DNA of 64,000 nucleotides from a virus (taxonomy: Duplodnaviria; Heunggongvirae; Uroviricota; Caudoviricetes), in the IMG/VR virus record IMGVR_UViG_3300032007_000048, positions 1 through 64,000 of that record; one strand, 5' to 3'. Position numbers and translations under genes: made by a program. Each line of letters opens with the position of its first letter. Positions within the stretch are counted from its first letter, which is position 1. The notes under the pieces were generated by a model. That model ran no database searches, was not told the DNA's origin, and worked only from the letters and a program-made list of their open reading frames with translations. Of this stretch, positions 1-61,400 are shown in pieces.

Positions 1-417
1 ACTATCTCTGACGATGCAATTAGGGAGGGCGTTGCTCATTTCGGCATCACACAATATCAGATAGATAATTGGCTAAAAAAACACATCAATGTCATGGAGC
101 AGAAACCTACAGAATGGGGTGAGGAGGATAAAGATTTATTGCTGAGCACTAAATGCATAATTGATGAAGTATGGCACTCTGAAAATACTTTTGGTTATTC
201 AAAAGAAGAGTTAGAAGAAATTTGGAATTGGCTTAATGTGGCTTGGACTAGATTAGAATATCCGAAAGAAAATGATGAGTGGAGTGAGGATGACCTAAAC
301 AGGATTAGAAATCTTATTTTCCTTGTTGAAAACAGTAACGAAGGTAGTGAAACAAAGAAAAATTTTGTAAAATTTCTTCAACGTTTATATATAAAGTCAC
401 AAATAAAAAAAATATAA
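1..417 (+). CDS. hypothetical protein, 5' end probably outside window
   Basis: ORF 94..417 (107 aa). The same frame is open from nt 1 (TISDDAIREGVAHFGITQYQIDNWLKKHINV precedes the Met), so the true start may lie upstream of the window. Confidence 0.4.
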   Translation, partial: TISDDAIREGVAHFGITQYQIDNWLKKHINVMEQKPTEWGEEDKDLLLSTKCIIDEVWHSENTFGYSKEELEEIWNWLNVAWTRLEYPKENDEWSEDDLNRIRNLIFLVENSNEGSETKKNFVKFLQRLYIKSQIKKI

Positions 418-15078: not shown

Positions 15079-15942
15079 ATGGACATTAAGACTATTAAAG
15101 GGAATCTTATTGAGAGGAGTGACACACTTGCAAGGTATTTTAGGGAAATCAATAAATATCCCGTACTTTCAGCGGAGGAGGAGTATGACCTTATACTTAA
15201 AATAAAAAATGGGGACAATGAGGCGAAAGAAAAACTCATAAACAGTAATCAGAGATTTGTTGTGGCTATTGCGAAAAGGTATGCCAACAACGATAACATC
15301 ATGGATTTAATTGACGAGGGTAACCTCGGTCTTATGTCAGTCATAAATGATATTGACAAATATGATACTACTAAGGGAACAAGGTTTTTGTCATATGCTG
15401 TTTGGTACATCAGGAGAAGTATTCAGTATTACATAATGAACACCAATATGTTTGTCAGAAGAACAAACAACATTAAATTGGGTAACAAAATGACCAAGGT
15501 TAAAAACAAGTATTTTGGTCTTAATGGCAGGTATCCAACCGAAGATGAGATAATTGATATGTTGAAAAAAGATTTTGACATCACAATACTCAAACAGAGT
15601 GATGTGTTTGACATCACAACTGAGTCAGTTAATGAGTACATTGACGAAGACCAGAACACTTTGGAAGACACTAAAGCATTTACTGACAAAACCGCAAGTT
15701 ATAATGAGTATGAGGAGACAATTGACAAGGAATATACCAAAACACTTGTCAGCAAATTGTTGTCCATGCTTAATGAAAGAGATAGAACAATAGTCAAAAT
15801 GTACTTTGGCATTGGTTATGACAAAGAGTATAATAACTATGAAATCGGTGAGGAACTTGGACTGACATCGGAAAGGATTAGGCAAGTTATTAATGATGTG
15901 ACTAAAAAGTTGCATAGGGCACTTAGTTTTGTTAAAGTCTAA
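15079..15942 (+). CDS. RNA polymerase sigma-70 family factor
   Basis: 287 aa. Region 2 DLIDEGNLGLMSVINDIDKYDTTKGTRFLSYAVWYIRRSIQYYI and a region-4 HTH (YEIGEELGLTSERIRQVINDVTKKLHR). Confidence 0.8.
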   Translation: MDIKTIKGNLIERSDTLARYFREINKYPVLSAEEEYDLILKIKNGDNEAKEKLINSNQRFVVAIAKRYANNDNIMDLIDEGNLGLMSVINDIDKYDTTKGTRFLSYAVWYIRRSIQYYIMNTNMFVRRTNNIKLGNKMTKVKNKYFGLNGRYPTEDEIIDMLKKDFDITILKQSDVFDITTESVNEYIDEDQNTLEDTKAFTDKTASYNEYEETIDKEYTKTLVSKLLSMLNERDRTIVKMYFGIGYDKEYNNYEIGEELGLTSERIRQVINDVTKKLHRALSFVKV

Positions 15943-17434: not shown

Positions 17435-17450
17435 TGGCACGGTTGTTGTA
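17435..17450 (+). promoter_or_regulatory. sigma-54-like -24/-12 motif (TGGCACG-N4-TTGTA)
   Basis: tggcacggttgttgta lies 52 nt upstream of ATG 17502. Confidence 0.4.
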
Positions 17451-17501
17451 AGATAAAAAGATGTAATTTTAAATTTTTGTTTTTATAAATTTTATTTTAT
17501 T

Positions 17502-18362
17502 ATGACGGACACAATAATTTCTTTCAGGTCAAATGACATCAGTACACATTTTCTTTCCAATGATGAGCTTAGGGCTAAATGTCCTTATGCGTTCATGACC
17601 GAACCGACCAACCCAAATGTTTCTAACAGGTACACTATGGCCACAACAATTGATGTTGTCAATGACATGGAGAAACTTGGTTGGTATCCTGTTGAGGCTA
17701 AGCAGTGCAAGACAAAAAAGAATTCAAGCGGAATTAAATCTTTCCATATGATTGCGTTTCAGAATCCGAACATCAAGATTTTGAACGACAAGACAAATAA
17801 TGTAGAGGCGTTTCCAAGAATCATTCTTCAAAACAGTCATGACGGTTTCAATAGTTTTAAGTTTATGTGCGGCATCTATCGCGTTATTTGTGGCAATGGA
17901 CTCATCATTGCTGACGCTGAGTTTGCCAAACTGTCAATTAGACATATTAACTATGAGTTTGAGGAACTAAGGACTGTTGTCATTAAGATGATTGATGAAC
18001 TTCCCAATAAGATTAATGTTATTAACGCCATGAGAATGACAAATTTGTCTGAAGAGCAGAAGATTGATTTTGCTACAAAGATAGTTAAACTCAGAAAGAA
18101 TGTTCCTTTTGAGAAGACGCTTGAAATAAGCAGTAACACTATTCGTGATATTCTCACACCTGTCCGTAAAGAAGATGAGGGGAACTCATTGTGGAATGTG
18201 TTTAATATCCTGCAAGAGAAGGTGATGAAAGGTGGGTTCTCATATGCCAAGGACGACAATTCTAAGGCAAGAAAAATGAGGGTGATTACCAGTCCTATTA
18301 AGGACATAAATCTTAATACCGATATGTTTGCTTTGGCTAATACTTATTTGAAAACAGCATAA
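17502..18362 (+). CDS. hypothetical protein, possibly DUF932-like
   Basis: 286 aa. NSHDGFNSFKF...CGNG resembles the conserved core of the DUF932 phage/plasmid family. This is a weak motif-only call. Confidence 0.35.
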   Translation: MTDTIISFRSNDISTHFLSNDELRAKCPYAFMTEPTNPNVSNRYTMATTIDVVNDMEKLGWYPVEAKQCKTKKNSSGIKSFHMIAFQNPNIKILNDKTNNVEAFPRIILQNSHDGFNSFKFMCGIYRVICGNGLIIADAEFAKLSIRHINYEFEELRTVVIKMIDELPNKINVINAMRMTNLSEEQKIDFATKIVKLRKNVPFEKTLEISSNTIRDILTPVRKEDEGNSLWNVFNILQEKVMKGGFSYAKDDNSKARKMRVITSPIKDINLNTDMFALANTYLKTA

Positions 18363-18366
18363 AAAC

Positions 18367-19020
18367 ATGGAAAATAATTTTAAGGAAATAATTAGGAAAA
18401 GGATTGATAGATTTAACAATCTTTGGAACACCGCTGTTGGTTATTCATTTGAGGACAGTGATGATATTCTCAAAAAGAAATTCAATGAAGAAAATGAGGG
18501 GTGGTTGGTAAAGGCTAATGAAGCCGCCAAAAACCATGGTTTTGGTTCATTTGAGGATTACCTTGACTGTAAGTATGACGATGACCCATGCGAATCAATT
18601 GATGAGTTAGACGCGCTTGAAAACATCAGGCCAAGATATAGTGGCGGTTTGTATCATTATGAAATGGCCGTAATTAACCAAGCGGAAAGTATCGCCAATT
18701 TTATTCTCAAAAAGTTTAATGAACTTAGTGAGGATTTACCAGATGAACTTGGTGTGGATTTGGATTATGCTTGGGACAGGTATGCCAAGGGCAGTAACGG
18801 TGATTATGTTGACGCGTTTACGTTTGTTAAAAAGATGAAAAACGATGGGTACAATGAGTGGGACGAGGGACACAGTGGTAACAGTGGTGGTATGGCTGTG
18901 ATGTTTGCAAATTGCCTTTTGTTTAAACCTGAAATCTTTCCATATCTGCATGGTGCGTTGTCTCCTTTGGTTGGTGATGAAGGCTACTATGATGACAGGA
19001 AAGATGTACCCCAATTTTAA
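18367..19020 (+). CDS. hypothetical protein
   Basis: 217-aa ORF. Confidence 0.45.
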   Translation: MENNFKEIIRKRIDRFNNLWNTAVGYSFEDSDDILKKKFNEENEGWLVKANEAAKNHGFGSFEDYLDCKYDDDPCESIDELDALENIRPRYSGGLYHYEMAVINQAESIANFILKKFNELSEDLPDELGVDLDYAWDRYAKGSNGDYVDAFTFVKKMKNDGYNEWDEGHSGNSGGMAVMFANCLLFKPEIFPYLHGALSPLVGDEGYYDDRKDVPQF

Positions 19021-19701
19021 ATGAAAAAACATATGAAAAACAAAGAGGATGTTTTTAAGAAAGCGGTGATTTGGTACTCTAAAGGTGGTGACTATAGAAA
19101 AGCGGCACTTGAACTGTATGATGAGGACAAACTTAAAAAAGAACTGCAAAATGTGGAAAAAGAACAACACAATATTGTTGTAAAAAACAGGGAAAAGGAA
19201 CTTAAGGAAAAATTAGATAGATGTACGAAACTTTTTCCAATTGGCACACTTATTGATAGTGATGATGGGAGTGACAAGTGTCTTAATATTGTGGTTGGAA
19301 AACCGTATATTGGAGAGGAGGATTACCACTGGCCAAACTATTGTAATGTTCCAACATGGGAACTTGGAAATCATAAAACTGTTCTGATTAAAACAGTTCG
19401 TGTTTCGTTCAATGAAGTTATTGGTAAATCAATTGTATGCCTTGAAAATCTTCTTCAGTTTATGGATAATCCCTCAAAAGATTTTTTACCAAAAAGAGGT
19501 ATAGTCAATTTGAAGGATTATGTGAATCAGAAAAACGAAATGAGAAGGAAAGAAATTGACAGGATTAATAAGGAGATTGATAAAGTCGAAATGGAAGTTA
19601 GTCTTCTTAAGTCTGAATTTTCTTTATACGATTCTTATAAACCGGAAGAATTTACCCAAGAAAAGATTGATGAAATTGTAAAAAAATACAAAAATTTTTA
19701 A
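19021..19701 (+). CDS. hypothetical protein, coiled-coil C-terminus
   Basis: 226-aa ORF. Confidence 0.45.
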   Translation: MKKHMKNKEDVFKKAVIWYSKGGDYRKAALELYDEDKLKKELQNVEKEQHNIVVKNREKELKEKLDRCTKLFPIGTLIDSDDGSDKCLNIVVGKPYIGEEDYHWPNYCNVPTWELGNHKTVLIKTVRVSFNEVIGKSIVCLENLLQFMDNPSKDFLPKRGIVNLKDYVNQKNEMRRKEIDRINKEIDKVEMEVSLLKSEFSLYDSYKPEEFTQEKIDEIVKKYKNF

Positions 19702-19702
19702 T

Positions 19703-20011
19703 ATGGATAATTATAGAAAAAAAACTTTTTTTGTTGACAATCGCGGTGTGCATTATGGTGTAAGGTCTCTTAATCCCAAATGGTACAAACAGTTTAGAGA
19801 AGAAGCCATTAAAAACATACAAATTTGGAAAAAGCCAAATGGATACTATGTGGCAAGAAATGTGATTGATGACAGTGGAAGACAGTATGCGGAAGAGACA
19901 ATATTTTTCGGTAACAACCTTAACAAAGCCAAAGATTATTGTAATGAGTTGAGAAGAGAATATATTTTGTCTGAGGTAAGGTATAAAAAAAGAAATAAGG
20001 TGGTTTATTAA
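19703..20011 (+). CDS. hypothetical protein
   Basis: 102-aa ORF. Confidence 0.4.
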   Translation: MDNYRKKTFFVDNRGVHYGVRSLNPKWYKQFREEAIKNIQIWKKPNGYYVARNVIDDSGRQYAEETIFFGNNLNKAKDYCNELRREYILSEVRYKKRNKVVY

Positions 20012-20023
20012 AACAACGCTAAA

Positions 20024-20425
20024 ATGTATAAGAAACTGACAGAAGAAGAGAAGAAACTCCTTGAGAAATATCCCAAGTATGACGATACTAAACCTGAGAT
20101 TTGGGTTGGAAGTAGGGATTATTATGAGGCTGTTTTTGAAACAGAAACTAATCGTGACCCTGAACTTCATGACGCGTTTTCTGATTTGCATGAGCAAATA
20201 GTTAACCTTGTAATCAATTTTTGTAAGGAACATAATCTTACTGATGTAGATGAATTCACTGTTGGTGCTGATGGAATTAAAGGTAGTATTCCTTATGGTG
20301 TATGGTGCCCTTGTACCGATTCTAATATGAGTATTATCAAATTGGTTGAAAATACCGAAGAAGCATCTAAAGAACATTGGCCTGAATTACCAGACAGAGA
20401 ACACCCTTTTCTTTATGAGATTTAA
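20024..20425 (+). CDS. hypothetical protein
   Basis: 133-aa ORF. Confidence 0.4.
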   Translation: MYKKLTEEEKKLLEKYPKYDDTKPEIWVGSRDYYEAVFETETNRDPELHDAFSDLHEQIVNLVINFCKEHNLTDVDEFTVGADGIKGSIPYGVWCPCTDSNMSIIKLVENTEEASKEHWPELPDREHPFLYEI

Positions 20426-20436
20426 AAATAAAATAT

Positions 20437-20895
20437 ATGGAAACAATACCTGAAATCGGAAAATATTATTATTTTTGGGACGATGGTAAGTCATCACCCT
20501 CAAGACATTACATTTGTAAATGTGAAAGGGTCATCACACCTGATGAGGCGAAAAACATTATGGTTAATGTTCCTTATGATGATGACCTGACAATAGAGAC
20601 AACATTGTATGACCATTGGCTTGAGTCAGAAATGCCTGAACATGATTGGCTATATGCCAAAGAGACAGATTATTTCGTTGAGTGTTCATGTCCAAAATAT
20701 GATGAGAATAACCTTTGGTTCGTGAGGACAAGGGATGGGGGATGGTTCAGCATGAATATACAAAACTGGTGGCAAGGTGGTACACTTGATGTGGATGAAA
20801 AAATACTTGACGGAATAATTGAAAATATCAAAAAATATCCTGAGTGGTATCCTAACCAAGAGGAATGGATAAAAAAATATACTTGTTTATACTAA
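20437..20895 (+). CDS. hypothetical Cys-containing protein
   Basis: 152-aa ORF with CKCE...CSCP pairs. Confidence 0.4.
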   Translation: METIPEIGKYYYFWDDGKSSPSRHYICKCERVITPDEAKNIMVNVPYDDDLTIETTLYDHWLESEMPEHDWLYAKETDYFVECSCPKYDENNLWFVRTRDGGWFSMNIQNWWQGGTLDVDEKILDGIIENIKKYPEWYPNQEEWIKKYTCLY

Positions 20896-20908
20896 ATAAG
20901 AAATATTA

Positions 20909-20924
20909 CCCATTGGTGTGTGGG
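20909..20924 (+). other. GC hairpin CCCA-N8-TGGG just after the stop of the upstream gene
   Basis: cccattggtgtgtggg. It is related in form to the hairpins at 22331..22348 and 31337..31356. Confidence 0.5.
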
Positions 20925-20960
20925 TTAATGCTCGGAAAATCAATTTGATAGAACGAGAAA

Positions 20961-21124
20961 GTTGTAATTCCATTTAATTTATGGTTGACTAACACCTAGT
21001 CTAACAAACCTAAAAAGCCTGACAGGTTGTAATTCCATTTAATTTATGGTTGACTAACATCTGCCATGAGGCATCTTGACAAGAACAGAAGTTGTAATTT
21101 TATTTACTTTTTTACATTAATAAA
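20961..21124 (+). CRISPR. CRISPR-like mini-array: three 34-nt repeats (third degenerate), two 31-nt spacers
   Basis: R1 20961..20994 and R2 21026..21059 are identical (GTTGTAATTCCATTTAATTTATGGTTGACTAACA). The spacers 20995..21025 (cctagtctaacaaacctaaaaagcctgacag) and 21060..21090 (tctgccatgaggcatcttgacaagaacagaa) are unique and equal in length. R3 from 21091 keeps GTTGTAATT and then diverges. The array lies 51 nt upstream of the TnpB-like gene on the same strand. Confidence 0.6.
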
Positions 21125-21162
21125 CTATTTATAAATAGAAAAAATAAAAATCTATTCATCTT

Positions 21163-22323
21163 ATGACAAGAGCATATAAATATAAACTTAAACCAACTGT
21201 GAAACAACAAAAATTGTTTTCACAAGCCTTTGGTAATGCTCGCTTTATCTATAATTGGGGACTTAATCGTAAAAAAGAAACCTGGGAAAAGGAACATAAA
21301 AATGTTACATATATACAACTGGCCAAAGAACTTACTTTACTTAAAAAAGACGGTGAACATGATTGGCTGAAACAATGTGCTAACGTTTGTCTACAACAAT
21401 CACTTAGAAACCTTGATAATGCCTATACCAGATTCTTTAAAGCAAAAAAAGGCTTTCCTAAATTTAAATCAAAGAAAAATAGTGTTGATTCTGTTAAATA
21501 CATTGCTGCTGTTCACTTTGATTTTGAAACCATGAGAGTATCAGTGCCATGTATAGGTAAAGTTAAATTTCTTAAAAATTGCGAATTTGATGTAAACACA
21601 GTAAAATTGGGTACTTTAACTGTTACAAAAGATAAATGTGGTGATTATTGGTGTACCATAGTAGTTGATGACAATAAACCAAACGTATCGAAAACCAAGA
21701 TATGTGAGGAAAAAACTGTTGGCATTGACTTAGGTGTTAAAGATTATGCAATTCTATCTGACGGTACAAAGTACGGAAATCCTAAGTATCTTGAAGCAAA
21801 ACAACAACAGTTAGCAAAAGCACAACAATGGCTTTCCAGAACACAAAAAAATAGTAAACGTCATGAAAAAGCAAAATTATATGTAGCAAAGTTACATAGA
21901 AAAATTGCTAACAGAAGAAATGATTTTCTTCATAAGTTAACAACCATGTTGATTAATGGTGAATATGACACATTTTGTATGGAGAATCTTAACATTACTG
22001 GTATGACACAGAATCATAATCTTGCAAAGAGTATAAATAGTGTTGCATGGAATGAATTTGTTAGACAATTGACATACAAGTGTGAATGGTGTGGAAAGAA
22101 CATTGTATTCATTGGTAGATATGAACCAAGTAGTAAGACATGTAACAAATGTGGATACATTGACAAGGAACTGAAGTTATCTGATAGAGAATGGATATGT
22201 CCAATATGTGGTGAACATCATGATAGAGATGTAAATGCAGCAATTAATATTAAGAACATGGGGTTACATCCACAGGCATTAATTGGCATTGAACAAAAAA
22301 TAGAAGAAATTAATAATAAATAA
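21163..22323 (+). CDS. TnpB-like RuvC/zinc-finger nuclease (IS605 OrfB family; candidate compact type V effector)
   Basis: 386 aa. RuvC-I VGIDLGVKDYA, RuvC-II FCMENLNITGM, zinc finger CNKCG...CPICG, RuvC-III HDRDVNAAINI. The OrfB-type N-terminus is present. No TnpA gene is nearby. Confidence 0.8.
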   Translation: MTRAYKYKLKPTVKQQKLFSQAFGNARFIYNWGLNRKKETWEKEHKNVTYIQLAKELTLLKKDGEHDWLKQCANVCLQQSLRNLDNAYTRFFKAKKGFPKFKSKKNSVDSVKYIAAVHFDFETMRVSVPCIGKVKFLKNCEFDVNTVKLGTLTVTKDKCGDYWCTIVVDDNKPNVSKTKICEEKTVGIDLGVKDYAILSDGTKYGNPKYLEAKQQQLAKAQQWLSRTQKNSKRHEKAKLYVAKLHRKIANRRNDFLHKLTTMLINGEYDTFCMENLNITGMTQNHNLAKSINSVAWNEFVRQLTYKCEWCGKNIVFIGRYEPSSKTCNKCGYIDKELKLSDREWICPICGEHHDRDVNAAINIKNMGLHPQALIGIEQKIEEINNK

Positions 22324-22446
22324 ATGGAATCCCCATCGGGAAGTGGGGCTATGAACGGAATCGAAAGTAAACGTTAAGATAGTAAATCTTGTGCAAACAA
22401 GTATATCATTCCCTAAAAAAGTATAAAGAAAAAAAAATATTAGTAT
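22324..22446 (+). ncRNA. candidate guide-scaffold RNA region (omegaRNA or tracrRNA-like) downstream of the TnpB-like gene
   Basis: A 123-nt non-coding gap begins with the GC hairpin ccccatcgggaagtgggg (22331..22348) immediately after the stop codon. Its position is analogous to TnpB right-end omegaRNA. This is inference only. Confidence 0.3.
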
Positions 22447-23160
22447 ATGGGAAAATTAAAGGTAATCGTTACCAGTGATTTACACGGAAATTTACCGGTG
22501 ATTATATCACCATTTGATTTGTTTCTTATATGTGGTGATAATTGTCCAGCACATAGTCATTACTACTCATTTCAATCAGAGTGGTTTAAAACTGATTTCG
22601 CTGATTGGATAAACACACTTCCATTTAAAAACGAATGGAGTAAAGTTGTGATGATTTGGGGTAACCATGATTACGTTGGCAAAAGACTTCATGAGGAGGA
22701 TTTGCATATATTCAACGAAAAAACAAAAAACAGGGTTGTTATATTGAACAATAACACATACGATTATGAGTATCTGACCGATAACGGTATTGAGACACTA
22801 AAAATATTTGGGACACCGTATTGTAAAATATTCGGTAATTGGGCTTTCATGGTTAATGATGAGCAACTTGGATATTATTATAACGAAATGCCTTACGATT
22901 GTGATATTGTGATTTCACATGACTCCCCATCAATAAATGGATTGGGAACCATTAACCAAGGTTGGAACAATGGTTATGACGCTGGAAATGAGGTGCTTGA
23001 TGAGTACATAAAACAACGAAAACCGAAATATTTTTTCAGCGGCCATATCCATAGTGGAAACCATAACTTTGAGGATGTCAATGGCACTATGATGGCAAAT
23101 GTCTCATATATTGATGAACATTATAAGCCAAAATATCTGCCACTTGAATTTGAAATCTAA
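22447..23160 (+). CDS. calcineurin-like metallophosphoesterase
   Basis: 237 aa. Motifs DLHGN, GDN, GNHDY and GHIHSG match the D-x-H / GD / GNH(D/E) / GH-x-H set. Confidence 0.75.
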   Translation: MGKLKVIVTSDLHGNLPVIISPFDLFLICGDNCPAHSHYYSFQSEWFKTDFADWINTLPFKNEWSKVVMIWGNHDYVGKRLHEEDLHIFNEKTKNRVVILNNNTYDYEYLTDNGIETLKIFGTPYCKIFGNWAFMVNDEQLGYYYNEMPYDCDIVISHDSPSINGLGTINQGWNNGYDAGNEVLDEYIKQRKPKYFFSGHIHSGNHNFEDVNGTMMANVSYIDEHYKPKYLPLEFEI

Positions 23161-23172
23161 AAGAAAAGAAAA

Positions 23173-23203
23173 AGAGAGATAGATACCTATCTCTCTTTTT
23201 TTG
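23173..23203. terminator. bidirectional intrinsic terminator
   Basis: gagagatag / ctatctctc stem with 4-nt loop, followed by TTTTTTT and preceded by an A-run. Confidence 0.65.
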
Positions 23204-23222
23204 TCTTTTATTGTTTGTTAAC

Positions 23223-23984
23223 CTAAACATTATCCTGTACTGTCCAACCTGTCGGAATACCACTTGTACCTGTTGTCCAAGATGCCATTGATGAGTGTTT
23301 AACAAATGTACCTGTACTTGCTACACTATTTACCCAATTATATGTACAATTACTTGCTGATATATCAGTTGCAAGACATTTAATATAGTTAAGATTTGTA
23401 CAACCTTCGAACATCTGATAATAACAATAATCTGTTAATGTTGTTGCAGGTAATTCAGGTGCTGTGGTTAGATTTGTACAACCAATGAACATTTCATAAT
23501 AACAGCCTTCTGTTAATGTAGTTGCAGGTAACGAAGGTGCTGTAGTTAAACTTTCACAACCTTGGAACATACTACCATAACAACTCTGTGTCAATGTTGT
23601 TGCAGGTAACAGTAGTTCACTTGCATCGGTTAAACCTGTACAATGAGTAAATAATCCATAAAATGTATAAGCATTTTCCAATGTGGTTAATGTACCAAAA
23701 TTAATACTATTAATCAACGACATTATATTACCTTTTACTTTGAATCCTGCCGTACTACTCATGAATCCGTTAAATGATATTTTTTTTCCCCCTGAAGGAT
23801 ATGTTGCATAATTTGCGTTATTTCCACGGAATTGTAAGGTGTCACCTGAAACAACTTGTATAAGTGTTTCACCTCTTGTGGAAGTTATGGATGTCCATGT
23901 TGAGCCATTATCTTTACTATACTCAATAGTTCTGGTAAAACCGGTGCCCAGTGTCCCCCAATAGATTATACCGTCATTAGTTAT
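23223..23984 (-). CDS. LRR (BspA/LRR_5-like) receptor-binding module B, in frame with upstream gene across a TAG codon
   Basis: The ORF track gives 23223..23762 (179 aa, starts MSSTAGF). A further 74 sense codons (23763..23984, ITNDGIIYW...FRGNNANYATY...) continue upstream in the same frame, with no ATG/GTG/TTG, back to the TAG stop of the 424-aa gene. The extension is homologous to the N-domain of paralogs. The frame was verified base by base. Confidence 0.5.
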   Translation of the reverse strand: MTNDGIIYWGTLGTGFTRTIEYSKDNGSTWTSITSTRGETLIQVVSGDTLQFRGNNANYATYPSGGKKISFNGFMSSTAGFKVKGNIMSLINSINFGTLTTLENAYTFYGLFTHCTGLTDASELLLPATTLTQSCYGSMFQGCESLTTAPSLPATTLTEGCYYEMFIGCTNLTTAPELPATTLTDYCYYQMFEGCTNLNYIKCLATDISASNCTYNWVNSVASTGTFVKHSSMASWTTGTSGIPTGWTVQDNV

Positions 23985-25259
23985 CTAAAATGTTAAAGGT
24001 TGGGATTTTTCATTTATTCTATTCCAATTAACAGGTATACCGTTAACACCTATTGTCCAATCAACACCGTCATTTGCCGCAACAAATGTACCTGATGATG
24101 CCACACTTTCTACCCAATCCAATGTACAATCAGTTGCTGATATATCAGTAGCAAGACATTTAATATAATTAAGTTCAGTACACCATCCGAACATACCTCT
24201 ATAACATTCATTTACTAATGTTGTTGCAGGTAACTCAGGTGCGGTTGTAAGACTTGTGCAACCATAGAACATCCTATAATAACAACCATCAGCTAATGTA
24301 GTCGCAGGTAACTCAGGTGCAGTGGTTAAGCCTGTACATTCCCTGAACATATAATAATAACATCTATTAGCTAATGTGGTCGCAGGTAATTCAGGTGTTG
24401 TTGTTAGACTTGTACAACCCCTGAACATCTGACTATAACAATTATTTGCTAATGTTGTTGCAGGTAATACTAACCCACTTGCGTCAGTTAAACCAGTGTC
24501 AGACGCAAACATAAAATCATAACAGTTACTTGCTAATGTTGTCGCAGGTAGTTCAGGTACTGTGGTAAGATTTGTACAATCATGGAACATACCGTTGTAA
24601 CAACCTTCACCGAGGTTCATTGCAGGTAGTTTAGGCACACCAACAAGGTTTGAACAATTTGCGAACATTTCCCTATAACATTCAACGGTCAAGTTATCTG
24701 CCGGTAAAATAAGTTTACTTGCATCAGTCAAACCCGTACAATACCTGAACAAACAAGTAAAAACCAAGGAAGCTGTCAACGAGGACATCGTGCTGAAATT
24801 ATTTGCGTCAAGCAGTGACATAACATTACCTTTAACGTTGAAAGTGCAAGTACAACCGCTAAAAAAATTAGCTTTTTCATATGTGTCACTTAATGTTGTA
24901 TATGTAACACCTTGCGGTGCTCTAAAAAGCACTGTATCGCCTGACGACACCGTGATAGAGGTACCACCAGTGCTTGAGGTGATTGTTACCCAATCCTCAT
25001 CGTTTTTTTTGTATTCTATTGTTCGTAAACTGTTATCTGATTTTGCTTTCCAATAAATATCACCATCACCTGTTATTTCAAATGTAAGCGGTGTTGAGAA
25101 TTTTCTTTCTTCCTCAGTCATATTATAATTAACCTTGGTGTTATCCTCAGTATAACTTACCCAAGGCTCAAGATAATCAAAATTTCTTTTTGTATTATAT
25201 TCGTTTTCAGTTTCAAATAAATGGATGTATTCTTTTACTTCTCCCATATAATTTAACAA
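23985..25259 (-). CDS. LRR (BspA/LRR_5-like) tail/receptor-binding protein, module A
   Basis: 424 aa. An N-terminal beta-rich domain (YLEPWVSYTEDNTKV...PLTFEITGDG), then about seven 23-aa repeats (LPATTLAxxCYxxMFxxCTxLTTAPE), then the conserved C-terminus NYIKCLATDISA. The annotated start codon is TTG; ATG 25247 is a more likely start. Confidence 0.6.
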   Translation of the reverse strand: MLNYMGEVKEYIHLFETENEYNTKRNFDYLEPWVSYTEDNTKVNYNMTEEERKFSTPLTFEITGDGDIYWKAKSDNSLRTIEYKKNDEDWVTITSSTGGTSITVSSGDTVLFRAPQGVTYTTLSDTYEKANFFSGCTCTFNVKGNVMSLLDANNFSTMSSLTASLVFTCLFRYCTGLTDASKLILPADNLTVECYREMFANCSNLVGVPKLPAMNLGEGCYNGMFHDCTNLTTVPELPATTLASNCYDFMFASDTGLTDASGLVLPATTLANNCYSQMFRGCTSLTTTPELPATTLANRCYYYMFRECTGLTTAPELPATTLADGCYYRMFYGCTSLTTAPELPATTLVNECYRGMFGWCTELNYIKCLATDISATDCTLDWVESVASSGTFVAANDGVDWTIGVNGIPVNWNRINEKSQPLTF

Positions 25260-25805: not shown

Positions 25806-27023
25806 TTATTTTTTGTATGCTATTTTTCTTGCTTCCAGCAAAAGATTATTAACGAAGTCAACATTAATTTCACTTGGAAGTTTTGTTGTTTTCACGGCTT
25901 CATCAAACTTGTTTTTTAACAATGTCGCCTCAGCCATCACCTCATCGTAAGAGAACTCATGATTTCTTATGGCAAGAAGGTGTTTGACATCATCACCTGT
26001 TCTTCTGACATTAAATCCCTTACCCTCAGCAAGTTCAACACCCATTTCCATTAGTCTAATCATGTGAAGGAAGTTTTTGCTGTCATAGTTATAACCTCTA
26101 TTGTTTTCATATCTCACAGGATTTCTATGTTTTTTCCACTCTGTCCAATCCTTGTAATCTTTACAGTGTTTGGTATATGCGTCCTTATTATATACCATAT
26201 AACAAATGGGCAGTTCACCCTTAGGTATTGATGACAATCTAACCTCATTTGATTTGGTAATCTCATCCGGATAAACAATACCTGAGTAATGGAAAAACTC
26301 TTTATTGTTGATTCTGTCTATGATGGACTGTTTGTCCATACCTTCACCAATTATTCTACAAAAAGGATACTTAACACCTTCAATCTGAAAATCAGCGCAG
26401 TACCAATCAATACCCTCAAATTTAAAATAAGCAGCAAAATCATAGTACACACCATAGGTGTCTTTCATGTTGGGTATGTTAACAAGGCCACAATATCTTT
26501 GGTCAAGATGGTATTCATCAAGAAATTCCTTTATTGGTTGGCTACCTTGATTTTTAAAGGTATAACAAAAATCAAGAATATCTTTTCTTTGGAAATCCTC
26601 AGGTATGTTACATTTCTTGTTATATCCACTTGCTTTTTGCAGTTGTTGAAACGCGTATCCCAAAATAGGATTGAGGCATTGTTTAGTTAAAAAGGCTTCC
26701 TTATGATTAAGAATATGTTGCACGGCAGGATGTATATCACCTATAATGCAATCATCAGGAATAAACAATGACTCCATGGATGTGGGGTTTGATTTAAGAA
26801 GTAACTCAACCCACCTTCCCAACTCATAAAAAACGACATCAGATTTTTCATCATTGACTTGTTCAACATATTTGTCTCTTAAACCGTACAAATCGGTCTC
26901 AGGGCAAATAAAAACGCCACCAATGTCCTTGTCACTGGTTTCAGTAAATGTACCATATGCATGTGAACCTCTAATATATTCGTATGCGATTAGGTTATTT
27001 TCTCTAAGATAGTCAATTGTCAT
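25806..27023 (-). CDS. nucleotidyltransferase (pol-beta superfamily) domain protein
   Basis: 405 aa. N-terminal GSHAYGTFTETSDKDIGGVF matches the hG[GS]x9-13Dh[DE]h NTase motif. Confidence 0.55.
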   Translation of the reverse strand: MTIDYLRENNLIAYEYIRGSHAYGTFTETSDKDIGGVFICPETDLYGLRDKYVEQVNDEKSDVVFYELGRWVELLLKSNPTSMESLFIPDDCIIGDIHPAVQHILNHKEAFLTKQCLNPILGYAFQQLQKASGYNKKCNIPEDFQRKDILDFCYTFKNQGSQPIKEFLDEYHLDQRYCGLVNIPNMKDTYGVYYDFAAYFKFEGIDWYCADFQIEGVKYPFCRIIGEGMDKQSIIDRINNKEFFHYSGIVYPDEITKSNEVRLSSIPKGELPICYMVYNKDAYTKHCKDYKDWTEWKKHRNPVRYENNRGYNYDSKNFLHMIRLMEMGVELAEGKGFNVRRTGDDVKHLLAIRNHEFSYDEVMAEATLLKNKFDEAVKTTKLPSEINVDFVNNLLLEARKIAYKK

Positions 27024-27129
27024 GTTTCAAAATTTTAATTGTACTCATTTTTTTTTTACAAATAAACAAAAATATTTTCATTAATAAAAATCTTCGGAAT
27101 AAATCATTCTGTATTTAAACTGTCCATAG

Positions 27130-28383
27130 TTAATTTCTAAAAATGTATAAATTATTACCACACTCAAAAAAATCTGGCCAGTCAAAGTTCTCAATCATTT
27201 TTTCAAATGTCTCTTTACTGAAACCGTCATTTTTTCTTCTTTCAATGTTTTTTTCGATACCCTTAGCCTCAACATATAAGTAATCGGTTATAACGTTATA
27301 CTCTTTTGAGAGTGTGTTAACTATTTCTTCCCTGTATTTCTTTTTAAGGTTTATGTTATTGATAACAATATCATGGCCACATGATGCCGCATGTAACATT
27401 CTTTGGTTGAAAATTTCGGTTACCTTATCTTCCTGTTCCTTTGTGCCGACAATTTTTTGACCATCAGCGCAAAATCCCAATTCTGCTCTAATATCATCCC
27501 TTGACAGGATTTCAGTCTTCCCTTCTTGGAACCTATATAGAAACTCATCACCGTCATACAACGTTATTGTTTTATTATCATCAAACAAATCATCAATAAG
27601 GGTGTTTTTTCCTGAACCAGGCAAACCAATCATCATGAACAAATTAACACTTGGTTTTTTGATGTTAAGTTCATAATCATTAAGATTAAAAAGATACTTG
27701 TTACAAAAATATGGCTTAGTCTCTGAAAGTTTTAAAAAATCAACCAACCTAGTGAAATGGTTTAAAATTCTCATTTCATCGCACTTGATTTCAGAACTAT
27801 GTTCAGACCCCATACAGTCAGCATATTTAAGTCTATATAGTTGCAACAGATTGACTTGACAAGACAACCTTATAATCTCCTCTATATAGTTCTTATGTTT
27901 GATTATATTAAGTGGAAGCATGTGGTATTTAACTAACGCGCATACTTTTTCCCTAAAAGACAAATCCTCATCCCATAACAATCTTCTTGTTATTTTCTCA
28001 CCCTCAAATTCGTGACCATAACTGTGCCAATTACCATCCTTACCTATTTTTGTGGTTACGCCTTTACCGATGTCATGAAAAAGGGCGGCAGTCAAAAGAA
28101 CATCAGCGTCCTCAATCTCAGCGGCTAAACATCTTCCCCTCCAATTTAGTATCATGTCAATGACAACATCACAAACCTTCATAGTATGTGTCATGACATC
28201 GCCTTCACTATGCCATTTAGGATTTTGCTCACAGTTTTTCAAAACGGCAAATTCAGGAACCTGCTCTACCGCTTCCCAATTTATAGAACAATTGGTAAAA
28301 TCAATTAAATCTGATGCTTTCATTTTTTTTTCTTTAAATAACCTGACAAAAAATACCGTAGTCATAATACAAAGTATCCTCAA
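27130..28383 (-). CDS. HD-domain phosphohydrolase / P-loop kinase fusion (polynucleotide kinase-phosphatase-like)
   Basis: 417 aa. An H...HD motif (KWHSEGDVMTH ... ALFHDIGK) is in the N-terminal half, and Walker A GLPGSGKNT is in the C-terminal half. Confidence 0.55.
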   Translation of the reverse strand: MRILCIMTTVFFVRLFKEKKMKASDLIDFTNCSINWEAVEQVPEFAVLKNCEQNPKWHSEGDVMTHTMKVCDVVIDMILNWRGRCLAAEIEDADVLLTAALFHDIGKGVTTKIGKDGNWHSYGHEFEGEKITRRLLWDEDLSFREKVCALVKYHMLPLNIIKHKNYIEEIIRLSCQVNLLQLYRLKYADCMGSEHSSEIKCDEMRILNHFTRLVDFLKLSETKPYFCNKYLFNLNDYELNIKKPSVNLFMMIGLPGSGKNTLIDDLFDDNKTITLYDGDEFLYRFQEGKTEILSRDDIRAELGFCADGQKIVGTKEQEDKVTEIFNQRMLHAASCGHDIVINNINLKKKYREEIVNTLSKEYNVITDYLYVEAKGIEKNIERRKNDGFSKETFEKMIENFDWPDFFECGNNLYIFRN

Positions 28384-60412: not shown

Positions 60413-61400
60413 TTTTTACGATAAACTTTTATTGTTTCACTTAATACATGAGTTTACTTACGGAAATGTAAGCAAGAAAATCTTGTCTGAAACAAGAGGT
60501 ATTGTACCTAATATTGATAATATAGTGAAAACATTTGTGTCTAATATTGGTATGCAAATTTATTCGGCGTTCAATGATGAAAATTACTTTTCAAATGTTG
60601 TGACTTCTGAATACACAGAAAAAGAAATACCATTGCCAAAAGATTGCTTTTTTAACCAATTTTATTTGAAAATAAGTATTGAGAAAAACAACGAAGTTAC
60701 ATATCATGGCGGTATGTATCCCATTAAGTCTTTTATTATAAACAAAAATGGTGATGGTTTTGTTTTTAGACCATATATAGTTTTACATATAGAAGGGGAA
60801 TCAATACAAACTGTTGTGAACAAATTGTCTATAGCGTTATCGCATGAACTGACACATGCGTATGACTATTATATGTATTTTCAAAAAAATGGTTTCCCAC
60901 AATCAGTGGATGATATTGAAAAAAGTGGTACTAAAAGATTCACGGATGCCATGCGTGGAAATCACAGTATTGAAAGAGTAATTGGTGACATAATGTACAG
61001 GTTGTCACAAAAAGAATTAAATGCATATTTAGGGCAATTAAGAACAGAGTTAAAATTTGTTGCAACAAAAATACAAGATGCTAAAACAGCATTTAAAGCA
61101 ATAAAAGAAACTTCATCATACCAAAAAACATACAAGTTTTTAGAGGACGAAATATCTTATATTGTTAACAATGTTGAACGTGAAGATTATCAACACTTAA
61201 TTATTAAATATACTAATAGTGTGGCAAACAAAAACTTTACTAACTATCAGCAAGTAGTTAAATACTATTTTAACAGGTGGTATAAATGGTCAGAAACATA
61301 TCTAACAAAAGCAAGTAAAATTGCCTTTGATGTTTTTAGTGAATCCAGTAATATTGGTTATGAGGATGATAAAACAAATAGTTTGAAAGATACTATTTAA
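60372..61400 (+). CDS. hypothetical protein, possible HExxH metallopeptidase
   Basis: 342 aa. Single HELTH motif (ALSHELTHAYDY). Weak call. Confidence 0.35.
   Translation: MTKKKKKKEVVMTNFYDKLLLFHLIHEFTYGNVSKKILSETRGIVPNIDNIVKTFVSNIGMQIYSAFNDENYFSNVVTSEYTEKEIPLPKDCFFNQFYLKISIEKNNEVTYHGGMYPIKSFIINKNGDGFVFRPYIVLHIEGESIQTVVNKLSIALSHELTHAYDYYMYFQKNGFPQSVDDIEKSGTKRFTDAMRGNHSIERVIGDIMYRLSQKELNAYLGQLRTELKFVATKIQDAKTAFKAIKETSSYQKTYKFLEDEISYIVNNVEREDYQHLIIKYTNSVANKNFTNYQQVVKYYFNRWYKWSETYLTKASKIAFDVFSESSNIGYEDDKTNSLKDTI

What the first reader, a model, noticed from the sequence alone, without database searches (positions are those of the whole stretch)
22324..22446. Non-coding 123-nt tail after the TnpB-like gene with a GC hairpin: omegaRNA or tracrRNA candidate
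TnpB guide RNAs are normally made from the 3' end of the gene plus the downstream right end. Here the stop codon is followed at once by the GC hairpin ccccatcgggaagtgggg, then by a segment with internal repeats (atggaatcc / acggaatcg) and no ORF before the next gene at 22447. If the upstream array supplies the guides, this region is the obvious place for a tracr-like scaffold. A 7-nt stretch (atggaat) is complementary to part of the repeat, but that is weak. If the locus is instead a plain IS, this would be the omegaRNA and right end.
Basis: inference. Interest (0 to 1): 0.55.

Follow-up and report, generated by a model that had tools for sequence, protein, structure and literature searches.

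The report
Right-end guide RNA of phage TnpB
The stretch after the TnpB gene is the right end of a 1.5-kb mobile element and most likely encodes the nuclease's own structured guide RNA (omegaRNA), not a tracrRNA; the upstream mini-array has its own diverged copy of the same scaffold in its leader.

Summary
The hairpin is real (22331-22348), but the 123 nt are not one unit. An element-free sister phage (L193) shows that 22324-22413/14 is the right end of an inserted ~1.53-kb TnpB element. Bases 22415-22446 are native phage DNA.

The right end is conserved in 19 relatives (55-97% TnpB identity), in a ~115-135-nt TnpB-less mini-element and in solo copies. It folds into three helices plus a pseudoknot between the first hairpin loop (GGGAA) and the last bases before the boundary (TTCCC). 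Compensatory changes support every helix. This matches a TnpB omegaRNA/reRNA; its guide position (22415 onwards) matches the empty site of L193 over 22 nt.

The tracrRNA reading fails. ATGGAAT occurs at chance frequency and is absent in relatives with the same repeat, and repeat-tail duplex energy is at background.

A covariance model built from tails alone finds the array leader plus first repeat (20902-21003) as the second-best hit in the window, and in every array-bearing relative. There the pseudoknot reads GGTGT/ACACC, so the repeats match the leader loop, not the tail loop.

The tail itself is an ordinary kind of RNA. The two-scaffold element, with inverted-repeat ends and an upstream array, is an unusual TranC-like variant. 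No RNA or activity data exist.

The parts
20870..20881 (.). Left copy of the duplicated target sequence (TAAAAAAATATA, one mismatch). The left junction of the inserted element lies at or within it.
   Evidence: Comparison with the empty site in L193.
20877..20897 (+). Left terminal inverted repeat, inner part only (ATATACTTGTTTATACTAAAT). The outer AGGGAATG seen in relatives is missing here.
   Evidence: (pair I1). Relatives have 22-30-nt arms that change together with the right arm.
20902..20960 (+). Array leader, a copy of the 5' half of the tail scaffold. It has hairpin ACCCA-TTGGTGTG-TGGGT (20908-25) and stem CTCG(20931-34)/CGAG(20954-57). The loop GGTGT is complementary to the repeat 3' end ACACC. 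It is the candidate cis/trans scaffold for the array.
   Evidence: A covariance model built from tails only hits 20902-21003 at 34 bits, E ~6e-4, full length. The same unit is found in all array-bearing relatives. MFE fold.
20961..21112 (+). Mini-array: repeat 1 20961-20997, spacer 1 20998-21025, repeat 2 21026-21062, spacer 2 21063-21090, degenerate third repeat from 21091. The 37-nt repeat aligns to the last 37 nt of the tail scaffold.
   Evidence: Spacers differ between near-identical elements.
21163..22323 (+). tnpB, 386 aa, with RuvC residues D189/E274/D356 conserved. The closest solved structure is ISDra2 TnpB.
22324..22330 (+). Non-conserved linker ATGGAAT between the stop codon and the scaffold.
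22331..22348 (+). Scaffold hairpin 1 (CCCCA/TGGGG). Its loop GGGAA (22338-22342) is the 5' strand of the pseudoknot.
22354..22375 (+). Scaffold stem 2: AACG (22354-57) pairs with CGTT (22372-75).
   Evidence: All four pairs change on both sides among relatives.
22378..22414 (+). 37-nt 3' module of the scaffold: GATAGTAAATC, then the GNRA-loop hairpin CTTGT-GCAA-ACAAG (22388-22401), then TATATCATTCCCT. TTCCC (22409-13) is the 3' strand of the pseudoknot. The last ~22 nt are also the right terminal inverted repeat.
22415..22446 (+). Native phage DNA. It holds the guide position of the omegaRNA (AAAAAAGTATAAAGAAAAAAAA is identical over 22 nt to the empty site of L193). It also holds the right copy of the duplicated target (22414-22425) and the upstream region of the next gene.

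Best explanation
Shown:
- Window 22324-22413/14 is the right end of a ~1.53-kb element inserted into this phage, roughly 20882-22413.
- Bases 22331-22414 form a conserved, covarying fold on the + strand: hairpin 1, stem 2, a GNRA-loop hairpin, and a 5-bp pseudoknot between the hairpin-1 loop (GGGAA) and the last bases of the element (UUCCC).

Inferred mechanism:
- This fold is an 84-nt omegaRNA/reRNA scaffold, made from or together with the tnpB transcript.
- The 16-20 nt that follow it (from 22415, native phage DNA) serve as the guide.
- The catalytically intact, ISDra2-like TnpB binds this RNA and cuts DNA that carries the same sequence next to a suitable motif. That is the unoccupied site in element-free sister phages, which favours retention and spread of the element (homing or competitor exclusion).
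- The tail is not the tracrRNA of the upstream array. The array leader plus one repeat is a diverged copy of the same scaffold. The repeat corresponds to the 37-nt 3' module, and the pseudoknot there reads GGUGU/ACACC. The repeats therefore match the leader loop, not the tail loop.
For: Boundary:
- L193 is 97% identical to window 17439-20881 and 91% to 22414-23583, and it lacks everything in between.
- Homology resumes right after ...CATTCCC(T).
- Flanks differ after CCCT in every other locus.

Conservation:
- The same tail follows TnpB relatives of 55-97% identity, with or without an array.
- It also occurs in a TnpB-less mini-element (L176), in a deletion derivative (L175) and as solo copies (L178, L179, L181).

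Structure:
- On 19 tails, 92% of cells are paired, with a covariation score of 0.274 against 0.117 in shuffles (0 of 500 reach it) and 0.02-0.09 for slid controls. All 4 pairs of stem 2 change on both sides.
- On the model-based alignment of 30 hits, the pseudoknot, which is not in the model, is 96.4% paired. Three of its 5 pairs change on both sides: GGGAA/TTCCC, GGTAA/TTACC, GGTAG/TTACC, GGGAA/TTTCC, GGAAA/TTTCC and GGTGT/ACACC.
- G-U pairs occur, which fits the + strand.
- A pseudoknot formed by the 3' end of the scaffold is described for prokaryotic omegaRNAs (PMC13565253, PMC13639567).

Protein:
- Pfam gives TnpB domains, the RuvC triad D189/E274/D356 is invariant, and the best PDB match is ISDra2 TnpB at E 2e-75.

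Guide:
- 22415-22436 is identical to the L193 empty site.

Against a tracrRNA role:
-, and the non-conservation of ATGGAAT.

Leader paralogy:
- Model R1, built from tails only, hits 20902-21003 at 34 bits over its full length. The next hit in the window scores 17.9 bits.
- It hits the same unit at 28-37 bits in all 8 array-bearing relatives tested.
- It finds nothing below E 0.1 in 253 kb around 63 more distant TnpB genes.
Against: - There are no expression data. The 5' end of the RNA, its processing and its binding by TnpB are inferred.
- Single-sequence folding energy is not exceptional (z -0.9).
- Rfam has no matching family, so homology to characterised omegaRNAs rests on position and architecture, not on a model hit.
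- No conserved TAM could be derived from the left flanks.
- The last ~22 nt are also a terminal inverted repeat, so part of the conservation could be a DNA-level transposase site.
- The element ends are symmetrical and there is a duplication at the junctions. This is unlike ISDra2-type IS200/IS605 elements, so the canonical 'peel, paste and re-cut' logic may not apply as such.
- E-values of R1 are rough because calibration was shortened.
Confidence: 0.8

Rival explanations
1. The tail is the tracrRNA of the upstream mini-array. It would pair with the repeat and supply the scaffold that crRNAs need to load into TnpB.
For: - It lies next to the effector gene, as many type V tracrRNAs do.
- In the window, AAATAAATGGAAT (22318-22330) is 12/13 complementary to ATTCCATTTAATT in the repeat (pairs I9/I10).
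- Later units of the array have only the 37-nt repeat and would need the 5' half of a scaffold from somewhere.
Against: - The complementary stretch is absent in L006, L173, L177 and L007, which have the same repeat.
- ATGGAAT is at chance frequency.
- Repeat-tail duplex energy is -14.5 kcal/mol against a background of -13.9 +/- 3.2; 40% of windows are as good.
- The tail loop GGGAA cannot pair with the repeat end ACACC, whereas the leader loop GGTGT can.
- The tail is equally conserved in array-less relatives: L183, L003, L013, L043 and L189.
Confidence: 0.07
2. The tail works only as DNA. It would be the right terminal inverted repeat plus subterminal binding sites for a transposase supplied in trans, with no RNA function.
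For: - Terminal inverted repeats of 22-30 nt whose two arms change together: L187 CCTGTTGGCTAA in both arms, L003 ACTATATAC..TTGAC in both.
- A duplicated target sequence at the junctions.
- A ~115-135-nt mini-element made of the two ends only (L176).
Against: - The inverted repeat covers only the last ~22-30 nt. Hairpin 1, stem 2 and the pseudoknot lie further in and keep pairing through compensatory and G-U changes. That is the signature of a folded single strand, not of a duplex protein site.
- The leader copy is in direct, not inverted, orientation.
- The two roles are not exclusive: in all TnpB elements the right end is both.
Confidence: 0.08
3. The tail is an ordinary 3' UTR. The GC hairpin would be the terminator of tnpB, and the rest the promoter region of the next gene.
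For: - A GC-rich hairpin lies shortly after the stop codon.
- 22415-22446 really is the native upstream region of the next gene.
Against: - No T-run follows the hairpin on the + strand. The terminator scan reports it only for the - strand.
- Conservation extends 66 nt beyond the hairpin, with covariation.
- The same sequence occurs behind unrelated genes and in a TnpB-less mini-element.
Confidence: 0.03

Closest known systems
omegaRNA / reRNA of IS200/IS605-family TnpB (ISDra2 type)
   Same: - It is encoded at the 3' end of tnpB and runs to the right boundary of the element.
- The guide is taken from the flanking DNA.
- It is a multi-helix scaffold whose 3' end forms a pseudoknot with an upstream loop.
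- The protein is closest to ISDra2 TnpB (PDB 8BF8/8H1J, E 2e-75).
   Different: - The scaffold is short: 84 nt from the first conserved hairpin, and the 5' end is unknown.
- There is no Rfam match.
- The element has ~22-30-nt terminal inverted repeats and a junction duplication instead of asymmetric hairpin ends.
- No tnpA is seen next to any relative.
- It is found in phage or metagenome contigs only; the best species-representative genome hit is 46% identical.
TranC (transposon-CRISPR intermediates; Jin et al. 2025, as cited in PMC13565253, PMC13639567 and bioRxiv 10.64898/2026.03.27.714800)
   Same: - A TnpB-sized, active-looking nuclease is linked to a short CRISPR-like array while its transposon right-end RNA is still present.
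- The repeat corresponds to the 3' part of the ancestral reRNA.
- A phage-borne, TnpB-sized example (CauTranC9: 38-bp repeats, 5 repeats) is described.
   Different: - The array is upstream of the gene, inside the left end of the element.
- It is directly preceded by a full copy of the scaffold's 5' half, so the first unit is a complete cis guide RNA.
- The two scaffolds have different, self-matched pseudoknot sequences.
- I could not obtain TranC sequences (no supplement held), so identity with a named TranC clade is untested.
- LaTranC is a distant relative: E 9e-36, C-terminal part only.
Type V-U / Cas12f-like systems that arose by 'serial duplication of omegaRNA segments' (Altae-Tran et al. 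2023, PMC10691335)
   Same: The repeat aligns to the terminal segment of the omegaRNA. Arrays are short and there is no cas1/cas2/cas4 nearby.
   Different: That survey reports that conserved arrays lie almost always downstream of the effector; here the array is upstream. The protein has no added domains.
Phage mini-arrays that borrow the host's CRISPR repeats (reviewed in PMC11656645)
   Same: One to three spacers in a phage genome, with no adaptation genes.
   Different: - Here the repeat, with its leader, scores as a copy of the element's own omegaRNA.
- It always travels with this TnpB inside the same inverted repeats.
IS630-linked TnpB elements with symmetrical ends (Altae-Tran et al. 2023, PMC10691335)
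   Same: A TnpB inside an element with inverted-repeat ends.
   Different: No DDE transposase is seen in the element. The apparent duplication is ~6-12 bp, not TA. Relationship not tested.

Membership tests
TnpB omegaRNA / reRNA | Lies at the 3' end of tnpB, on the same strand, reaching the right boundary of the element | tested here: met
   The scaffold 22331-22414 starts 7 nt after the stop codon. In L008 the ORF runs into it. The boundary is fixed by the empty site in L193.
TnpB omegaRNA / reRNA | The scaffold ends sharply at the element boundary, and the guide is the adjacent flanking DNA, which differs between insertions | tested here: met
   Sequences diverge right after CCCT in 13 or more loci. 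22415-22436 equals the empty site of L193.
TnpB omegaRNA / reRNA | Conserved secondary structure with a pseudoknot that involves the 3' end of the scaffold | tested here: met
   91-92% of cells paired, and 0 of 500 shuffles reach the covariation score. The pseudoknot is 96-100% paired, with changes on both sides.
TnpB omegaRNA / reRNA | The RNA is expressed, bound by TnpB, and directs TAM-dependent DNA cleavage | not testable with these tools
   No transcript or biochemical data. No TAM consensus emerged from the flanks.
TnpB omegaRNA / reRNA | Match to a curated omegaRNA model | tested here: not met
   No Rfam 15 hit at E <= 10 in 22150-22460 or in 20000-24000. Rfam may not hold a model for this clade, so this is weak evidence.
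tracrRNA | An anti-repeat with significant, conserved complementarity to the CRISPR repeat | tested here: not met
   Duplex energy is at background. The 13-nt match is specific to the window. ATGGAAT is at chance frequency.
tracrRNA | Presence depends on presence of an array | tested here: not met
   The tail is equally present and structured in the array-less relatives L183, L003, L013, L043 and L189.
IS200/IS605 (ISDra2-like) element | Asymmetric ends with subterminal hairpins, no terminal inverted repeats, no target duplication | tested here: not met
   There are 22-30-nt terminal inverted repeats in 9 loci. TAAAAAAGTATA is present once in the empty site and at both junctions in the window.
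IS200/IS605 (ISDra2-like) element | TnpB protein of the family with an intact RuvC triad | tested here: met
IS200/IS605 (ISDra2-like) element | Y1 TnpA (or an IS607 serine TnpA) in at least some copies | tested here: not met
   No such gene appears next to tnpB in any of the contexts listed. Only ~1.5-2.5 kb on each side was seen.
TranC / type V-U (locus level) | A TnpB-like effector stably linked to an array with variable spacers | tested here: met
   There are 12 different full-length spacers in 5 elements whose TnpB is 88-97% identical to the window's, plus the window's own 2. Arrays are also present at 68-83% identity.
TranC / type V-U (locus level) | The guide is split into a separate tracrRNA and crRNA that act with the effector | tested here: inconclusive
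   Only a 5-bp leader-loop/repeat-end pairing is available for assembly in trans. There are no RNA data.

The most novel reading that the evidence does not exclude
One TnpB may be served by two orthogonal guide-RNA scaffolds carried in the same small element.
- The first is the classical right-end omegaRNA, whose single guide is fixed by the insertion site.
- The second is a left-end copy of that RNA in which the last 37 nt plus guide have been multiplied into a spacer-variable array.
- The swapped pseudoknot (GGGAA/UUCCC against GGUGU/ACACC) would keep the two from mis-assembling.
- The leader would act in cis for the first spacer and as a minimal tracr-like partner in trans for the later ones.

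That would be a natural, still mobile intermediate of the omegaRNA-to-tracrRNA/crRNA split. It sits upstream of the effector, in a phage, and uses inverted-repeat ends.
Probability: 0.3. Interest if true: 0.8.

Novelty: new variant of a known kind. Interest (0 to 1): 0.55.

Why it matters
The tail alone is an expected component of a TnpB element. Its value is as a reference. Because its fold can be read from covariation, it shows that the array leader and repeat are a second, re-keyed copy of the same RNA.

That gives a concrete, testable example of how a CRISPR-like array can grow out of a transposon guide RNA. The repeat is the 3' module, the leader is the 5' module, and the link between them is a 5-bp pseudoknot. 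The example sits in a 386-aa nuclease that still has its transposon RNA.

The element and an empty site are both in hand. So the predicted target of the right-end guide is known and can be tested directly. The compact protein with two short scaffolds is also of practical interest for genome editing.

Tried and rejected
- Rfam scans of 20000-24000 and 22150-22460 at E <= 10 found nothing in the tail.
- The anti-repeat idea was rejected on frequency, non-conservation and duplex energy.
- The third-best model hit in the window (61236-61332, 17.9 bits, E 0.39) lies inside an ORF with no Pfam family and was dropped as chance.
- Protospacers were not found:
  - none in the window or in any fetched locus;
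  - none in GenBank phages for window spacers 1-2;
  - none in IMG/VR for a 20-mer of spacer 1.
- Megablast of the locus against GenBank phages gave no match. The best protein hits there are 43% identical or less.
- Species-representative genomes gave nothing closer than 46%, so no host could be assigned.
- I considered that the conserved sequence left of TTTAC is a preferred target rather than part of the element. I rejected this because ATATACTTGTTTATAC is absent from the empty site.
- I tried to read a TAM from the left flanks. The candidates (TGGAT, TGGTT, TATAT, AAAAT, AAAAT) give no firm consensus.
- The supplement of the CauTranC9 preprint is not held, and the TranC paper itself is not in the library.
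- Model R1 does not detect tails of TnpB relatives at 47% identity or less.

Full report
**What is at the coordinates**

- The ORF 21163-22323 encodes a 386-aa TnpB with Pfam domains HTH_OrfB_IS605, OrfB_IS605 and Cas12f1-like_TNB.
- Residues D189, E274 and D356 are invariant among 25 relatives.
- The best solved relative is ISDra2 TnpB, E 2e-75 over residues 3-368.
- After the stop codon come the linker ATGGAAT (22324-22330) and the hairpin CCCCA-TCGGGAAG-TGGGG (22331-22348). Another 98 nt follow before the ATG of a metallophosphoesterase gene at 22447.
- Only a 29-aa TTG ORF touches the interval.
ATGGAAT occurs 19 times against 19.6 +/- 4.5 expected.
- The tail's folding energy alone is unremarkable (z -0.9).

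**The tail is the right end of an inserted element**

- IMG/VR contig IMGVR_UViG_3300021255_003464 (L193) is a sister phage. It is 97% identical to window 17439-20881 and 91% identical to 22414-23583, and it lacks everything between.
- Its empty site reads ..gaggaatggaTAAAAAAGTATAaagaaaaaaaatattaatgtATG.
- In the window the left junction is ..ggaTAAAAAAATATA|cttgtttatac.. and the right junction is ..tatcattccc|TAAAAAAGTATAaag...
- The inserted DNA is therefore about 20882-22413. The position is ambiguous by up to 12 nt because of the duplicated sequence.
- Bases 22324-22413/14 belong to the element. Bases 22415-22446 are native: in the empty phage they are the last codons of the upstream gene plus the start region of the next gene.
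- In every other locus the sequence also diverges right after ...GTATATCATTCCCT.

**The right end is conserved and mobile**

- The same tail follows TnpB relatives of 55-97% identity from metagenomes, with or without an upstream array.
- It also occurs without tnpB, all seen:
  - L176 is a ~115-135-nt mini-element in which the array-leader hairpin is fused to the tail hairpin.
  - L175 keeps the left end, leader, one repeat, the last ~100 nt of tnpB and the tail.
  - L178, L179 and L181 carry a solo tail that starts exactly at CCCCATCGGG.
- The clade is not seen in species-representative genomes (best hit 46%) or in GenBank phages (43% or less).

**Structure**

- I aligned 19 tails (A2) and named a structure of four parts:
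  - hairpin 1;
  - stem 2, with an extra inner hairpin in the more distant relatives;
  - a GNRA-loop hairpin;
  - a pseudoknot between the hairpin-1 loop and the last five bases before the final T.
- On A2, 92% of cells pair. The covariation score is 0.274 against 0.117 in column shuffles (0 of 500 reach it), and slid controls give 0.02-0.09.
- All four stem-2 pairs change on both sides: AACG/CGTT, ACCT/TGGT, GCTT/TAGC, GACG/CGTC, GGCA/TGTC, AATG/CATT and GGCG/CGCC.
- The pseudoknot is 100% paired on A2. It reads GGGAA/TTCCC in most tails, GGTAA/TTACC in L189, GGTAG/TTACC in L013 and GGGAA/TTTCC in L008.
- The G-U pairs fit a folded + strand.
- A pseudoknot made by the scaffold's 3' end is a described feature of prokaryotic omegaRNAs.
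- In window coordinates:
  - hairpin 1 is 22331-22348, with the loop GGGAA at 22338-42;
  - stem 2 is 22354-57 with 22372-75;
  - hairpin 3 is 22388-22401;
  - the pseudoknot 3' strand is 22409-13;
  - the guide position starts at 22415.
- Bases 22415-22436 are identical to the empty site of L193. The predicted RNA would therefore direct TnpB to element-free sister genomes. That step is inferred, not shown.

**Is it a tracrRNA for the upstream array?**

The array:
- It holds two 37-nt repeats, two 28-nt spacers and a degenerate third repeat (20961-21112).
- It is a real, variable array. Five elements whose TnpB is 88-97% identical to the window's carry 12 full-length spacers, all different from each other and from the window's two.
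- I found no cas1, cas2 or cas4 within about 7 kb.

Evidence that the tail does not serve it:
- The complementary stretch AAATAAATGGAAT exists only in the window. L006, L173, L177 and L007 read differently at that position; L006, L173 and L007 carry the same repeat.
- The repeat-tail duplex energy is -14.5 kcal/mol against a background of -13.9 +/- 3.2, and 40% of windows are as good. With the gene's 3' end included it is -19.6 against -16.2 +/- 2.9.
- The tail is just as conserved in the array-less relatives L183, L003, L013, L043 and L189.

**The array has its own scaffold**

- Covariance model R1 was built from tails only and does not include the pseudoknot.
- Run over the whole window with filters off, it gives the tail at 102.9 bits. 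The second hit is 20902-21003 on the + strand: 34 bits, E about 6e-4, full length. The next hit scores 17.9 bits.
- The second hit is the array leader plus repeat 1, and it aligns part for part:
  - hairpin ACCCA-TTGGTGTG-TGGGT;
  - stem CTCG/CGAG;
  - the 37-nt repeat on the 37-nt 3' module;
  - both ending in CCT.
- R1 finds the same unit at 28-37 bits in all eight array-bearing relatives tested.
- It finds nothing below E 0.1 in 253 kb around 63 more distant TnpB genes.
- In these leader-repeat units the pseudoknot columns read GGTGT/ACACC. On the combined alignment the pseudoknot is 96.4% paired, and three of five pairs change on both sides.
- The repeats are thus keyed to the leader loop, not to the tail loop (GGGAA).
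- The L176 mini-element, a fusion inside the two hairpins, independently shows that they are homologous.
- I infer that the leader is the cis scaffold for spacer 1 and the only plausible trans partner for later units. Whether 5 bp plus protein contacts suffice is unknown.

**Nature of the element**

- Left and right ends are 22-30-nt imperfect inverted repeats: AGGGAATGATATACnnGTTTAC.. on the left and ..GTAAACnnGTATATCATTCCCT on the right.
- The two arms change together in different lineages (L187, L003, L174).
- In the window the outer 8 nt of the left arm are missing.
- The junction duplication in the window is 6-12 bp. Possible 6-bp duplications flank L011, L174, L176 and L008, but not L175, L184, L187 or L003.
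- No transposase gene is seen next to any copy.
- These features do not fit ISDra2-type IS200/IS605 ends. Symmetrical ends are reported for IS630-linked TnpBs, but I did not test a link.

**Comparison with the literature**

- Altae-Tran et al. 2023 propose arrays born by 'serial duplication of omegaRNA segments' and note that conserved arrays are almost always downstream of the effector.
- TranC systems (Jin et al. 2025, seen only through citing papers) are TnpB-derived intermediates in which the right-end RNA is split into tracrRNA and crRNA.
- A phage-borne, TnpB-sized TranC9 with 38-bp repeats has been reported. I could not obtain its sequence, so I cannot say whether the present clade is the same.
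- The tail itself is therefore a new member of a known kind of RNA.
- The element as a whole is an unusual variant: an upstream array with a cis leader scaffold, two self-matched pseudoknots, a retained right-end RNA and inverted-repeat ends.

**Verdict**

- The omegaRNA/right-end reading is supported and the tracrRNA reading is not.
- Everything about expression, processing, TAM and cleavage remains inference.

Noticed in passing
window 20902-21112: The array leader plus repeat is a diverged copy of the tail scaffold, and the 37-nt repeat corresponds to the last 37 nt of the tail. The leader loop GGTGT is complementary to the repeat end ACACC. Repeat 2 has ACATC, which would weaken that pairing.
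   Followed up: yes
window 20870-20897 and 22393-22425; L193 3424-3470: An empty site in a sister phage shows a 1.53-kb insertion. TAAAAAAGTATA is present at both junctions (one mismatch on the left), and the ends are inverted repeats. The outer 8 nt of the left repeat, present in most relatives, are missing in the window. The insertion replaced the last codons of the upstream gene (..KKYKEKKY* became ..KKYTCLY*).
   Followed up: partly
L176 (- strand) 1933-2050; L175 (- strand) 193-510; L178, L179, L181: There are TnpB-less derivatives. One is a ~115-135-nt mini-element next to tRNA genes, made of the left end fused to the tail inside the two hairpins. One is a deletion whose left junction sits exactly at the end of the repeat (..ACACCT) and joins it to codon N358 of tnpB. 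Three contigs carry a solo tail followed by a terminator.
   Followed up: partly
window 21125-21138: A perfect palindrome CTATTTATAAATAG lies 25 nt upstream of the tnpB start. It is conserved in array-bearing relatives (L006, L007, L008, L184; L011 has CTATTTATGAATAG) and may be a promoter or operator. Array-less relatives instead share TGATATTTAT at that place.
   Followed up: no
L001 and L002 (IMG/VR 3300021426 contigs of 133 kb and 43 kb): Both contigs with the closest relatives end inside tnpB, at residues 314 and 288. That suggests assembly breaks at a sequence present in several genomes or variants of that sample.
   Followed up: no
L189, L190, L191 at 291-401 (- strand): A second, weaker tail-like hit (30-32 bits) lies upstream of the TnpB element in the opposite orientation. 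It has its own matched pseudoknot, GGAAA/TTTCC.
   Followed up: no
window 20998-21025 and L002 2791-2819: Spacer 1 of the window and spacer 1 of L002 share the 9-mer AGCCTGACA near their 3' ends, so they may come from overlapping sites of one target. No protospacer was found for any spacer. Spacers are richer in G+C than the surrounding phage DNA.
   Followed up: partly
window 15079-15942, 25806-28383; L007 1464-2285: The phage encodes its own sigma-70-type factor. It also encodes an RlaP-like nucleotidyltransferase and an HD + AAA_33 kinase-like protein, which are RNA-repair-type genes. A relative carries a Thg1 gene right after the element. Several relatives sit on contigs of 350-415 kb, suggesting very large phages.
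   Followed up: no
window 22326-22330 with 22408-22412: In the window only, GGAAU just before hairpin 1 can pair with AUUCC at the 3' end, and the MFE fold uses this pairing instead of the pseudoknot. It is not conserved in relatives.
   Followed up: yes
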